Positions 16,250 through 18,021 of a stretch of DNA of 64,000 bases are shown here, in pieces. The stretch is from Octopus sinensis. Taxonomy: Eukaryota. Position 1 is the stretch's first letter. Every line of letters begins with the position of its first letter. Below the pieces are notes generated by a model. It made no database searches. It saw only the letters and a list, made by a program, of their open reading frames with translations, and was not told the origin of the DNA. The translations under genes and the position numbers were made by a program. Location: positions 100,812,001 through 100,876,000 of the forward strand of contig NC_043004.1 in assembly GCF_006345805.1 (NCBI RefSeq). The letters are read 5' to 3'.

Positions 16250-16460
16250 AGGTAGAAAGCTAACAGAATATTTAGCGCGTGGGGCAAAATGCTTAGCCGC
16301 AATTCTTTTGATTCTTTACGTTCTGAGTCCAAATTCCGTCAAGGTCATCTTTTACTTTCAACCTTTGACAGTCGAGAAAATAAGTACCAGTTGAACATTG
16401 GTGGTTTGATTCATTCAACCAACCCTTCCACCGAATTTCAGGTCTTATAGCTATATTAGA
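16250..16460 (+). mobile_element. Decayed MetaSINE-like SINE
   Basis: ttacgttctgagtccaaattccgtcaaggtc...taagtaccagttg matches the better copy at 25670-25902. Confidence 0.65.
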
Positions 16461-16630
16461 ATAATTACGCATATATTTATCTCAATATGGCTAACAACTA
16501 AGGGTGGGTGTTACTGTAGCTTTTAGCCCCAGGAGATCATCGTCTCCAGCTGGCTTTAGGCACATTTTCTGTGCCCTTATGGTATTTGCAAAGGGAGGTC
16601 ATCCCTCTCTCGTAAACCTAAGCGATACGC

Positions 16631-16670
16631 ACGGACTGCAGTTTCGAGGTAATTTGCCTCTTGTCAACGT
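16631..16670 (-). ncRNA. Minimal hammerhead ribozyme, U3-A8 core variant
   Basis: Minus strand reads acg TTGACAA gagg caaatta cctc GAAAC tgca GTC cgt. Confidence 0.75.
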
Positions 16671-16716
16671 ACGGTAATTACAGGTCTTCCTTTCATCGTA
16701 AACCGGTGATTACCGG

Positions 16717-16756
16717 ACGTTGACAAGAGGCAAATTACCTCGAAACTGCAGTCCGT
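16717..16756 (+). ncRNA. Minimal hammerhead ribozyme, U3-A8 core variant
   Basis: acg TTGACAA gagg caaatta cctc GAAAC tgca GTC cgt; identical to the opposite-arm copy, with palindromic stem III actgcagt. Confidence 0.75.
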
Positions 16757-17046
16757 GCGTATCGCTTAGGTTTACGAGAGAGGGATCACCTCCCTTTGCA
16801 AATACCATAAGGGCACAGAAAGTGTGTCTAAAGCCAGCTGGAGACGATGATCTCCCGGCGCTAAAAGCTACAGTAACATCCACCCCTAGTGGTTAGCCAT
16901 ATTGAGATGGCTAGTATACTTTACGTTGTCGAGTGCTTACTGTTTACATCTCGTTCAGAGATTTATTATTGCTTATTCATATATTTTTAGACAGTATTTC
17001 TAGGATTGAAATGTTAAGGCGCATTGCTCATTCCTAGTATTTCTAG

Positions 17047-17382
17047 TGAGGGCGCATGGCTCAGTGGTTAGAGCGTCAAAGCTTACAATCGTAGGTTGTG
17101 AGTTCGAATCCCGGACCGGGCTGCGTATTGTGTTCTTGAGCAAGACACTTTATTTCACGTTGCTCCAGTTCACTCAGCTGTAGAAACGAGTTGCACCGTC
17201 ACAGGTGTCAAGCTGCATGGGCCTTTGCCTTTCCCTTGGATGACATCAGTGGCATGGAGAGAGGAGGCTGGTATGCATGGGCGACCGCTGGCCTTCCATA
17301 AACAACCTTGCCCGGAGTTGTGCCTGGGAGGGTTACTTTTTAGGTGCAATCCCATGGTCAGTCATGATCGAAGGGGGTCTCA
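17047..17382 (+). mobile_element. tRNA-derived SINE (head type 2, CORE-like segment, tail C)
   Basis: A box tggctcagtggt, B box agttcgaatcc, CORE-like tgtgttcttgagcaagacactt. Probable TSD agt(a/g)tttctag at 17036-17046 and 17383-17393. Confidence 0.85.
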
Positions 17383-18021
17383 AGTGTTTCTAGGATTGAA
17401 ATGTTGGATATGTCCTTTTTCAGAATACACTCGTCTTTGTCTTGTATGGTTCCCTTTTGCAGTGCGTCGATGATACAACAACGAAAGTCTTAAGCGTCGG
17501 TTCTTCCCTCGAATGAATCCATAGCGTTATTTCGTGGTACCTCGCTCAGCCTTCTTTTGTTTTTGGTTTCTGTAGATATACTGGGGTGGTTTACCATTGT
17601 CTTTCCCAACTGGATGGGCGTAGACCCACAGTGTGCTAATTTCGACAGGTGTTATTTGTTGTTGTTGTTGCTGCTGTTATCAGACTCCTTCCCCACAAGA
17701 GCAGCAAGCTACTCAAGCGGGGAAGCCGGTTTAGTCATCGACCACCCGACCGTGGAACAAGTAGTACTGGACTACATGCTACCAGTGGCAGGTCTCATCA
17801 GCGGGTGATGTGATCTCTGACCTAACTAAAATAATACACTACAGTGGGATTTAAGGGAAATTTACCTGCTATCTCTTGCAATTGGAGCAAATATCACTTT
17901 GATGTAGTTGAGTGGCGATGTGTATTTGTGTCGTAATGTGTTACGTTGTAAAGGTAAATATTGTTTCAATGGTGTATATTGATGTGTATGCTCAATGATG
18001 TATATTCAATGGTGTATATCT

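What the first reader, a model, noticed from the sequence alone, without database searches (positions are those of the whole stretch)
16479..16908. Hairpin element carrying two identical U3-A8 variant hammerheads back to back
Seen: core UUGACAA rather than CUGANGA in both arms, with intact stems, a GUC site and a perfect palindromic stem III (actgcagt). The 40-nt motif is identical in both arms while the remaining arm sequence has several mismatches. Established: C3-G8 is a tertiary pair and U3-A8 is a rarer natural compensatory variant that strict CUGANGA searches miss. Inference: an under-annotated ribozyme retroelement family.
Basis: partly seen in the sequence, partly recalled or inferred. 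Interest (0 to 1): 0.75.

Follow-up and report, generated by a model that had tools for sequence, protein, structure and literature searches.

The report
Head-to-head ribozyme repeat insertion, known kind
The hairpin is two head-to-head copies of a short, very abundant non-coding repeat that carries a variant hammerhead ribozyme motif, likely left by a single Penelope-type jumping-gene insertion; both the layout and the variant ribozyme core are already described in other animals, so it is ordinary of its kind.

Summary
The inverted repeat is real: arms 16479-16685 and 16702-16908, 207 nt, 11 mismatches. Each arm holds the same 34-nt hammerhead-like motif with a UUGACAA core, but the two lie on opposite strands, so any transcript carries one sense ribozyme and its antisense.

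It is not a hairpin element. It is one insertion (16479-16974, flanked by a 9-bp duplication) of two head-to-head copies of a ~356-nt non-coding unit.

- The unit's hammerhead superfamily gives 3265 exact pattern matches in this 2.72-Gb animal genome.
- Units occur as monomers, tandem arrays (period 344-360) and head-to-head pairs with variable spacing.
- 3' ends fall at two fixed sites about 47-50 nt apart. In 12 of 14 head-to-head pairs exactly one arm carries this "tail".

That is the published insertion signature of Penelope-like elements, applied here to a retrozyme-like non-autonomous repeat.

Core states in the superfamily: C3-G8 1710, U3-A8 791, U3.G8 643, C3/A8 70. A8 goes with U3 in 92% of cases. 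Helix I and the palindromic loop III covary.

Natural U3-A8 hammerheads, including in Penelope elements, were published in 2011 and 2014. Cleavage, expression and the mobilising element were not shown here. Verdict: a new member of a known kind, of modest interest.

The parts
16470..16478 (.). left copy of the candidate target-site duplication CATATATTT
   Evidence: The same 9-mer lies at 16978-16986. The repeat finder extends the match to 14 nt with 2 mismatches (D3).
16479..16689 (-). inverted copy of the repeat unit: unit positions 301-356 followed by 1-154; cut short at both ends and lacking the tail
   Evidence: BLAST of the 356-nt reference unit against L001, which is the window offset by +15201.
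16634..16667 (-). hammerhead-like motif of the left copy (U3-A8 core); predicted cleavage between 16634 and 16633
   Evidence: Exact 34-mer. Family covariance model R1 scores 79.3 bits over 16620-16681.
16680..16974 (+). direct copy of the repeat unit: unit positions 285-356 followed by 1-220; 5'-truncated, reaching the long 3' end
   Evidence: BLAST against the reference unit. The sequence continues in register with tandem copies of L010.
16720..16753 (+). hammerhead-like motif of the right copy (U3-A8 core); predicted cleavage between 16753 and 16754
   Evidence: Exact 34-mer. R1 scores 80.4 bits over 16706-16767, with a G.G mismatch in helix I.
16924..16974 (+). 'tail': the roughly 47-50 nt between the short (unit 169-173) and long (unit 216-223) 3' ends, present on this arm only
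   Evidence: The 3' ends are bimodal in 47 copies, and 12 of 14 head-to-head pairs have one tail per pair.
16978..16986 (.). right copy of the candidate target-site duplication CATATATTT; the 3 nt ATT at 16975-16977 are unassigned

Best explanation
The 430-base hairpin is part of one insertion (16479-16974, flanked by a 9-base duplication) made of two head-to-head copies of a ~356-nt non-coding repeat that carries a minimal type I hammerhead motif with a U3-A8 core, and it was likely produced by reverse transcription by a Penelope-like element (PLE) primed on both strands of the cut target.

Shown here:
- The unit exists as monomers, tandem arrays and head-to-head pairs.
- 5' ends are scattered, while 3' ends fall at two fixed sites.
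- One tail is present per inverted pair.
- Target duplications flank whole pairs.
- Helix I, stem II and loop III of the motif covary across subfamilies, and the 3-8 core pair is C-G, U.G or U-A in 98% of motifs.

Inferred:
- A PLE enzyme supplied in trans copies unit RNA starting at either of two internal start sites. The two cDNAs meet at a variable point, leaving a head-to-head pair.
- In tandem transcripts two motifs would pair through their palindromic loop III to form the active dimeric hammerhead, releasing 356-nt monomers that are predicted to be strongly self-paired.
- The window copy itself is most likely dead on arrival. It has one sense motif per strand, no tandem partner, a helix I mismatch, and a transcript that would fold as a long duplex.
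For: Family and layout:
- The arm sequence has 3038 first-look candidates in the own genome; 42 scored matches at 93-100% identity.
- Of the 30 loci fetched, most hold a single motif. L010 holds 3 tandem units and L016 holds 2.
- Among 334 listed motif hits there are 44 tandem neighbours (mostly 344-360 bp apart), 42 head-to-head (-,+) neighbours 133-634 bp apart, and only 2 tail-to-tail. Partners share the same core state in all 88 pairs.

Termini, after dropping one locus fetched twice (47 copies):
- 3' ends: 26 at unit 169-173, 18 at 216-223, 2 at 153-154, 1 at 231.
- 5' ends are spread over unit positions 1-315.
- 12 of 14 head-to-head pairs have exactly one arm ending at 216-221 and the other at 153-173.

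Target sites:
- 5 of 9 head-to-head pairs are flanked by 9-16 bp duplications. The other 4 lie in (AT)n.
- About 10 of 29 insertions abut (AT)n.

Published PLE signature (passages read):
- PMC8557442: 5' truncation, partial tandems, an adjacent inverted 5'-truncated copy, a 30-40 bp tail often at one end only, and a microsatellite insertion bias.
- PMC11167929: reverse transcription starts at two adjacent internal sites, and both DNA strands are cut and extended.

Potential mobiliser:
- GIY-YIG gives 5029 first-look candidates.
- 3 of 3 ORFs tested (775-883 aa) carry RT plus a C-terminal GIY-YIG domain.

Ribozyme structure, 67 distinct motifs:
- 93.6% of cells are paired, against 24-54% when partners are slid.
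- Covariation score 0.345, against at most 0.137.
- Double changes: helix I pairs AU36/GC28 and AU32/CG23; loop III UA39/CG18 and GC26/AU11/CG7.

Core pair counts: C3-G8 1710, U3-A8 791, U3.G8 643, C3/A8 70, out of 3265.

Other points:
- The canonical sister copy scores 32.2 bits on Rfam Hammerhead_1.
- The unit has 41.9% GC and no open frame above 57 aa.
- The monomer folds at -108.4 kcal/mol, z = -4.75.
- These fit metazoan non-LTR retrozymes (PMC7229834, passages).
Against: - No autonomous PLE sharing the unit's hammerhead or 3' end was found among 40 PLE loci (30 with 1.5-kb flanks, 10 of 6 kb). The only hits (L097, L151) are neighbouring insertions. The mobiliser is therefore unidentified.
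- The tail here is about 47-50 nt, longer than the published 30-40.
- 2 of 14 head-to-head pairs (L019, L026) break the one-tail rule.
- The window's left arm ends at unit 154, not at the usual 169-173.
- The window's target duplication is only 9 bp in AT-rich DNA, with 3 unassigned bases.
- Cleavage was not shown. No Rfam hammerhead model matches the U3 variants.
- The isolated motif folds no better than shuffles (z = -1.8 and -0.2).
- A C3/A8 subfamily, which cannot pair, forms one clade (support 99) nested among U3-A8 copies and still spread to dozens of copies.
- Many subfamilies lack the G10.1-C11.1 pair.
- For one PLE, hammerhead cleavage was not needed for insertion in vitro, and no RNA reads ended at the cleavage site (PMC11167929, passage).
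- G8 to A8 lies in a CpG when N7 is C, so mutation bias may explain part of its recurrence.
Confidence: 0.78

Rival explanations
1. The hammerhead motif is a passenger. The U3-A8 (and U3.G8) cores cleave poorly or not at all, and the family spreads whatever the cleavage activity. The apparent conservation would then reflect recent common descent and CpG mutation bias.
For: - A C3/A8 clade amplified.
- 643 motifs have the wobble core U3.G8.
- Subfamilies without G10.1-C11.1 are numerous.
- G8 lies in a CpG in CUGACGA and UUGACGA cores.
- Hammerhead cleavage was not needed for PLE insertion in vitro (PMC11167929).
- The tree needs only 7 state changes for 113 copies, so the number of independent events is small.
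Against: - Compensatory double changes occur in helix I and in the self-complementary loop III across subfamilies.
- A8 makes up 4% of C3 motifs (70 of 1780) but 55% of U3 motifs (791 of 1434), although both backgrounds contain the same CpG.
- A8 arose on the U3 background in at least 4 places on the tree.
- U3-A8 cores are reported active in vitro elsewhere (PMC3088659, passage).
Confidence: 0.25
2. The unit is a SINE-like passenger of a LINE, and the head-to-head pairs arise by twin priming, as in L1 inversions.
For: - Twin priming (recalled, not looked up) gives the same (-,+) geometry within one target duplication.
- LINE-type elements with APE endonuclease and RT exist in the genome and lie inside units at three loci.
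Against: - Copies end without a poly(A) or simple-repeat tail of their own.
- The inverted arms start at fixed unit positions (169-173 or 216-223) rather than at scattered internal sites.
- One tail per pair, the (AT)n target bias and the hammerhead are PLE hallmarks.
- BLAST of the unit against the LINE-bearing loci found unit homology only in the flanking unit pieces, not in the LINE body or its 3' end.
Confidence: 0.07
3. The hairpin is itself a functional unit: a structured RNA carrying two ribozymes, or a long hairpin that feeds small-RNA pathways.
For: The transcript would form a near-perfect hairpin of about 200 bp (-393 kcal/mol, z = -40). Such hairpins can be diced (general knowledge, not tested here).
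Against: - There is only one sense motif per strand.
- Spacing and junction points differ in every head-to-head pair.
- The arm ends follow insertion rules, not a conserved hairpin design.
- Nothing in the data points to selection on this locus. Identity of the motif in both arms is within chance.
Confidence: 0.03
4. It is a foldback or MITE-type DNA transposon with long terminal inverted repeats.
For: 207-nt inverted arms and a short flanking duplication.
Against: - Most family copies have no inverted partner.
- Tandem arrays and scattered 5' ends point to reverse transcription.
- The two arms differ in length and end point (unit 154 against 220).
Confidence: 0.02

Closest known systems
Metazoan non-LTR retrozymes (Cervera and de la Pena 2020, PMC7229834; passages read)
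   Same: - Non-coding tandem repeats of 170-400 nt with a type I hammerhead.
- GC below 45% (41.9% here).
- Copies range from dimers to multimers.
- The monomer RNA is predicted to be highly self-paired.
- Autonomous PLEs co-exist in the genome.
- Short helix III with dimer-dependent cleavage, as in the axolotl repeats.
   Different: - Circular or linear monomer RNAs were not shown here.
- Many copies are dispersed single or head-to-head units rather than arrays.
- The core is U3-A8 or U3.G8 in about 44% of motifs.
Hammerheads of Penelope-like elements, including the U3-A8 variant in Schistosoma mansoni (Cervera and de la Pena 2014, PMC4209133; passages read)
   Same: - U3-A8 in place of C3-G8, in more than a thousand copies.
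- Palindromic positions 15.2-16.2 and loop III.
- Dual motifs 100-700 bp apart on opposite strands.
- High variability within one genome, with compensatory changes.
   Different: - Those min-HHRs have a long helix II (7-8 bp), a short helix I and often no helix III. Here helix II is 4 bp and helix I is 6 bp plus an extension, as in canonical type I motifs.
- Here the motif sits in a 356-nt non-coding unit, not in the repeat of an ORF-bearing element.
PLE insertion architecture: pseudo-LTRs, inverted 5'-truncated copy, one-sided tail (Craig et al. 2021, PMC8557442; Frangieh et al. 2024, PMC11167929)
   Same: - 5' truncation and partial tandems.
- Head-to-head inverted copy.
- An extension present at one end only.
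- Two discrete start sites.
- (AT)n target bias.
- Target duplications around the whole unit.
   Different: - No RT/GIY-YIG ORF in the element.
- The tail is about 47-50 nt rather than 30-40.
- The mobilising PLE was not identified.
[quoted passage not shown]
   Same: It proposes that tandem hammerhead repeats derive from PLE pseudo-LTRs and are mobilised by PLEs.
   Different: That work covers vertebrates and rests on phylogeny and co-distribution. Here the support is the insertion signature. No sequence link to a PLE was found.
Natural hammerhead core variants (Perreault et al. 2011, PMC3088659, passage; U3 with G8 in halophile examples quoted in PMC7151607, passage)
   Same: U3-A8 covariation occurs in nature and is active in vitro. 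A U3 G8 core has also been reported.
   Different: Those are mostly microbial, single-locus ribozymes, not amplified repeat subfamilies.

Membership tests
Hammerhead ribozyme, type I | Conserved core: U4 G5 A6 N7 A9, G12 A13 A14, A15.1-U16.1, and H17 at the cleavage site | tested here: met
   Both window motifs read UUGACAA ... GAAA ... GUC. These columns are invariant in 67 distinct family motifs, but the motifs were fetched with patterns that fixed most of them.
Hammerhead ribozyme, type I | Positions 3 and 8 able to pair (C-G or a covariant) | tested here: met
   The window has U3-A8. Genome-wide: C-G 1710, U-A 791, U.G 643 and the non-pairing C/A 70, out of 3214 with C or U at position 3.
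Hammerhead ribozyme, type I | Helices I and II supported by covariation, helix I open | tested here: met
   helix I 91.7% paired, with 5 pairs changed on both sides; stem II 95.5% paired, with 1 such pair. The slid controls give 24-54% paired.
Hammerhead ribozyme, type I | A stable helix III, or a self-complementary loop III that allows a dimer | tested here: met
   Helix III is 2 bp. Loop III columns are 96.7% self-complementary, with UA39/CG18/UG8 and GC26/AU11/CG7.
Hammerhead ribozyme, type I | Score at or above the Rfam RF00163 gathering threshold | tested here: not met
   No hammerhead hit in the window at gathering score or at E<=10. The canonical sister copy reaches 32.2 bits against a threshold of 34.
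Hammerhead ribozyme, type I | Self-cleavage at H17 | not testable with these tools
   Needs in vitro transcription, or RNA ends mapped in vivo.
Metazoan non-LTR retrozyme | Short non-coding tandem repeats (170-400 nt), each with a type I hammerhead, and low GC | tested here: met
   Period 344-360 in 39 of 44 tandem neighbours. The unit is 356 nt, 41.9% GC, with no open frame above 57 aa.
Metazoan non-LTR retrozyme | Expressed as monomeric linear and circular RNAs | tested here: inconclusive
   No listed run is on record as RNA. The contigs laid cannot show RNA ends or circles.
Penelope-like element (autonomous) | ORF with RT and GIY-YIG endonuclease | tested here: not met
   The unit has no ORF. 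The window ORFs of 150 aa or more gave no Pfam hit (16 of 18 scanned). Such ORFs do exist elsewhere in the genome.
PLE-type insertion (mobilised by a PLE) | 5' truncation, partial tandems, adjacent inverted copy, a tail at one end only, and a target duplication | tested here: met
   One tail per pair in 12 of 14 head-to-head pairs; two 3' end classes in 44 of 47 copies.
PLE-type insertion (mobilised by a PLE) | Sequence shared with an autonomous PLE (3' end or pseudo-LTR) | tested here: not met
   None among the 40 PLE loci sampled. The sample is small against 5029 GIY-YIG candidates.

The most novel reading that the evidence does not exclude
One genome keeps, as separately amplified subfamilies, every step of a compensatory walk in the hammerhead catalytic core: C3-G8, then the wobble U3.G8, then U3-A8. 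The last step was taken at least four times, on the U3 background only. This would mean that ribozyme catalysis is under selection in the master copies of Penelope-mobilised retrozymes. The strict one-tail-per-pair rule would be the in vivo footprint of two reverse-transcription start sites used on the two DNA strands of a single integration.
Probability: 0.35. Interest if true: 0.5.

Novelty: new member of a known kind. Interest (0 to 1): 0.3.

Why it matters
It matters mainly for annotation. Thousands of hammerhead motifs in this genome escape the standard Rfam model because of the U3 core, and the head-to-head copies look like hairpin genes or MITEs.

Two features could be useful beyond that:
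- The family offers a ready natural series of core variants (C-G, U.G, U-A, C/A) in near-identical scaffolds for testing what the 3-8 pair contributes to dimeric hammerheads.
- Its two 3' end classes and one-sided tail give an in vivo read-out of the unusual Penelope integration mechanism on a small, easily handled RNA.

Tried and rejected
- Rfam on the whole window (gathering) and on 16300-17200 (E<=10): only microRNA-hairpin artefacts caused by the long inverted repeat.
- ARAGORN on the window: no tRNA.
- Pfam on 16 of the 18 window ORFs of 150 aa or more: no hit, so there is no retroelement ORF beside the locus.
- Sequencing runs: no RNA holder listed.
- Contigs of four coded runs laid on a tandem locus:
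  - The repeat is present in several coded organisms.
  - Depth is much higher over the unit body than over the hammerhead and linker, which suggests a larger superfamily.
  - There is no usable evidence on transcription, cleavage or circles.
  - No habitat or species conclusion is drawn.
- Search for the autonomous partner:
  - Methods were BLAST of the unit and the family covariance model R1, run against 30 PLE loci with 1.5-kb flanks and 10 PLE loci of 6 kb.
  - Only two neighbouring unrelated insertions turned up (L097, L151).
- Hammerhead pairs about 5.8 kb apart looked like a possible full-length element. They turned out to flank a LINE-type element, not a PLE.
- Single-sequence folding of the 62-nt motif is uninformative: z = -1.8 and -0.2.
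- Earlier-findings look-ups by place and by sequence returned nothing.
- A literature search for retrozymes in molluscs or cephalopods gave nothing specific. I did not establish the species.
- Three paper-tool calls failed on term format. Two were re-sent in corrected form.

Full report
**1. What is in the window**

The inverted repeat is real. Its arms are 16479-16685 and 16702-16908, 207 nt each, 95% complementary, with a 16-nt spacer. The arms differ at 11 positions.

The 34-mer TTGACAAGAGGCAAATTACCTCGAAACTGCAGTC occurs twice and only twice, at 16720-16753 on the + strand and 16634-16667 on the - strand. None is expected by chance.

Read as a type I hammerhead it gives:
- a U3 U4 G5 A6 C7 A8 A9 core;
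- a 4-bp stem II (GAGG/CCUC) with a 7-nt loop;
- G12 A13 A14;
- a 2-bp helix III (A15.1-U16.1, C15.2-G16.2) closing the palindromic loop UGCA;
- a GUC cleavage site;
- helix I formed by the flanks (CGUGCG with CGUACG or CGGACG).

The two motifs are on opposite strands. Any transcript therefore carries one sense motif and its antisense. A + strand RNA of 16470-16980 is predicted to fold into a near-perfect hairpin of about 200 bp (-393.2 kcal/mol, z = -39.9), which leaves no room for the ribozyme fold.

That the motif is identical in both arms is within chance. P = 0.13 for a 34-nt block and 0.088 for a 40-nt block, given 11 mismatches in 207 nt. The mismatch-free run is 70 nt, 16717-16786.

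No Rfam hammerhead model matches, either at gathering score or at E<=10.

**2. The family**

The window lies in a 2.72-Gb genome of 13,516 contigs, at C8:100812001-100876000. One arm finds 3038 first-look candidates, of which 40 were scored, giving 42 matches at 93-100% identity.

Most of the 30 fetched loci hold a single motif:
- L010 has three motifs 356-357 bp apart on one strand.
- L016 has two motifs 353 bp apart.
- A few loci are inverted like the window.

I took one 356-nt unit from L010 as reference, with position 1 the base after the predicted cleavage site and the hammerhead at 323-356.

On that scale the window holds two copies:
- a direct copy at 16680-16974 (unit 285-356, then 1-220);
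- an inverted copy at 16479-16689 (unit 301-356, then 1-154).

The insertion therefore runs about 66 bases past the hairpin on the right. The 9-mer CATATATTT flanks the whole at 16470-16478 and 16978-16986, with three unassigned bases at 16975-16977.

**3. How the copies are arranged**

I examined 334 motif hits printed by four pattern searches. The lists cover only the first contigs; those cover the whole genome. Neighbours within 1.2 kb were as follows:

| Arrangement | Pairs | Spacing |
|---|---|---|
| Tandem | 44 | 39 at 344-360 bp |
| Head to head (-,+) | 42 | 133-634 bp |
| Tail to tail | 2 | 624 and 964 bp |

In all 88 pairs both partners have the same core state. The window's 86-bp spacing is shorter than any of the 42.

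I then examined 47 copies of the window's own subfamily, after dropping a locus fetched twice (L130 = L102):
- 3' ends: 26 at unit 169-173, 18 at 216-223, 2 at 153-154 (the window's left arm and L105), and 1 at 231.
- 5' ends are scattered from 1 to 315.
- In 12 of 14 head-to-head pairs one arm ends at 216-221 and the other at 153-173. L019 and L026 are exceptions.

In more distant subfamilies 7 of 8 pairs show the same pattern and L048 does not. BLAST ends are less exact there, at 70-79% identity.

Target sites:
- 5 of 9 head-to-head pairs are flanked as a whole by duplications of 9-16 bp.
- The other 4 lie in (AT)n.
- About 10 of 29 insertions abut (AT)n.

**4. What this layout means**

These are the published hallmarks of Penelope-like element (PLE) insertions.

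Craig et al. 2021 (PMC8557442, passages) describe:
- strong 5' truncation;
- partial tandems;
- an inverted 5'-truncated copy adjacent at the 5' end;
- a 30-40-bp tail often present at only one end;
- a microsatellite insertion bias.

Frangieh et al. 2024 (PMC11167929, passages) report that a purified PLE protein:
- starts reverse transcription at two adjacent internal sites that match the tail;
- cuts and extends both DNA strands.

The genome is rich in such elements. GIY-YIG gives 5029 first-look candidates, and 3 of 3 ORFs tested (775-883 aa) have RT followed by GIY-YIG.

The unit itself has no open frame above 57 aa and 41.9% GC. It cycles unit to unit in arrays. It is therefore a non-coding tandem repeat with a type I hammerhead, the definition of metazoan non-LTR retrozymes (PMC7229834, passages). 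A 2026 preprint argues that such retrozymes are non-autonomous PLE derivatives (abstract only).

The 356-nt monomer is predicted to be strongly self-paired (-108.4 kcal/mol, z = -4.75). Helix I is extended by about 30 further pairs.

I infer that a PLE enzyme acting in trans copied unit RNA from both sides of one staggered cut. It started once at the long site and once at a short site, and the two cDNAs were joined at an arbitrary point. That gives the window's hairpin as a by-product.

This step is inferred. I found no PLE that shares the unit's hammerhead or 3' end among the 40 loci sampled.

**5. Is the motif a real hammerhead, and do U3 and A8 go together?**

I aligned 67 distinct motifs with 14 nt of flank on each side (A1) and counted pairs for the hammerhead structure:
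- 93.6% of cells are paired, against 24-54% when the partners are slid by 1-3 columns.
- The covariation score is 0.345, against at most 0.137.
- Two helix I pairs switch between AU and GC (36/28 and 32/23).
- The two loop III columns are 96.7% self-complementary and switch between UA, CG and UG (39/18/8) and between GC, AU and CG (26/11/7).

Loops seen include UGCA, UCGA, UAUA, CAUG and CUAG, plus wobble-compatible UCGG, CUGG and UGCG. That is what a dimeric helix III requires.

Caveats on this test:
- Rows came from pattern-fetched loci.
- Several columns were fixed by the patterns.
- Copies are related by descent.

Exact genome-wide counts of the pattern N-TGAYRA-N13-18-GAAAC-N2-5-GTCCGT are below. 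Backward-read controls gave 1-25 hits.

| Core state | Count |
|---|---|
| All (any base at position 3) | 3265 |
| C3-G8 | 1710 |
| U3-A8 | 791 |
| U3.G8 | 643 |
| C3/A8 | 70 |

A8 therefore goes with U3 in 791 of 861 cases. A8 makes up 55% of U3 motifs but 4% of C3 motifs. The only non-pairing combination is 2% of the total.

With stem II fixed as GAGG/CCTC the counts are 815, 547, 101 and 34.

I built a tree from the 175 nt downstream of the cleavage site, with the motif excluded. It used 113 of 114 copies; one copy with A at position 3 was dropped. It needs 7 state changes, 3 at position 3 and 5 at position 8:
- C3-G8 copies form one clade.
- U3.G8 copies form a paraphyletic backbone.
- U3-A8 arises in at least 4 places forced by well-supported branches.
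- The 10 C3/A8 copies are one clade (support 99) nested among U3-A8 copies.

The tree is unrooted, and the sample is biased by how the loci were fetched.

The pattern fits a compensatory path through the wobble pair. Two facts weaken a claim of strict selection:
- G8 lies in a CpG when N7 is C.
- A non-pairing C/A lineage still amplified.

Rfam's Hammerhead_1 scores a canonical sister copy at 32.2 bits (threshold 34). It gives nothing for the three loci with U3-A8, U3.G8 and C3/A8 cores (L010, L061, L051) at E<=10.

**6. What is already known**

- Perreault et al. 2011 state that C3 and G8 covary to U3 and A8 in several natural hammerheads, and that such variants are active in vitro (PMC3088659, passage).
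- Cervera and de la Pena 2014 found about 1,300 U3-A8 motifs in Schistosoma mansoni PLEs. They also noted paired motifs 100-700 bp apart on opposite strands, and the palindromic nature of 15.2-16.2 and loop 3 (PMC4209133, passages).
- A natural U3 with G8 core is quoted in PMC7151607 (passage).
- Earlier notes of this scan describe the same head-to-head PLE stumps in other animal genomes.

Nothing in the window's element is new in kind.

**7. What stays open**

- Cleavage, expression and circular RNAs were not shown. No run is on record as RNA, and contigs cannot show ends.
- The mobilising PLE is unidentified.
- The tail here is longer than published.
- Two head-to-head pairs break the tail rule.
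- The window's left arm ends 15-19 nt short of the usual site.

**8. Verdict**

The locus is a dead-on-arrival, head-to-head insertion of a retrozyme-like repeat, most likely made by a PLE. Interest is modest. The natural series of core variants and the clean two-site, one-tail footprint are useful material rather than a discovery.

Noticed in passing
window 17049-17125 (+): A tRNA-like stretch with A-box and B-box-like motifs that neither ARAGORN nor Rfam calls. It is probably the head of a tRNA-derived SINE. An 18-nt direct repeat at 16993-17010 and 17383-17400 hints at two neighbouring copies.
   Followed up: no
L143:1350-6800, L144:1289-6370, L146:1135-8254 (own genome, three chromosomes): A LINE-type element of about 5.5 kb (zinc knuckle, APE-type endonuclease, RT, zf-RVT) sits inside a hammerhead unit at the same unit position (about 298-314, repeated on both sides) in three loci. 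The loci are 83-92% alike over 3.5-6.6 kb. Either the composite spread as a whole or the LINE targets that site.
   Followed up: partly
own genome, e.g. G000:C1:27766308-27766343 and C1:28630009-28630044: Large subfamilies of the same hammerhead lack the usually conserved G10.1-C11.1 pair: UAGG...CCUU gives U/U and CGGG...CCCA gives C/A. In alignment A1 that pair reads GC 47, GU 10, unpaired 10. They may use a shifted register with an extra unpaired base, or be inactive.
   Followed up: no
L097:40-420: A 71%-related repeat family, again as a head-to-head insertion ending in ...TTATTATTGCT next to (AT)n. Its hammerhead reads CUGAUAA with a poorly paired stem II. It is an older or decayed relative of the window's family.
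   Followed up: partly
L016:1540-1784 and 1974-2108 (unit body): In contigs of four coded runs the unit body is covered 20-100 times more deeply than the hammerhead and linker. Loose ends there match the L097-like family. The body seems to be shared with a much more abundant repeat superfamily present in several coded organisms.
   Followed up: no
L151:5292-5570 (+) beside the PLE ORF at L151:2045-5118 (-): A canonical C3-G8 unit copy lies head to head with the 5' end of an intact-looking PLE (RT plus GIY-YIG, 775 aa), but the PLE's own 3' end shows no similarity to the unit. This is either a chance neighbour or a hint at co-insertion.
   Followed up: partly
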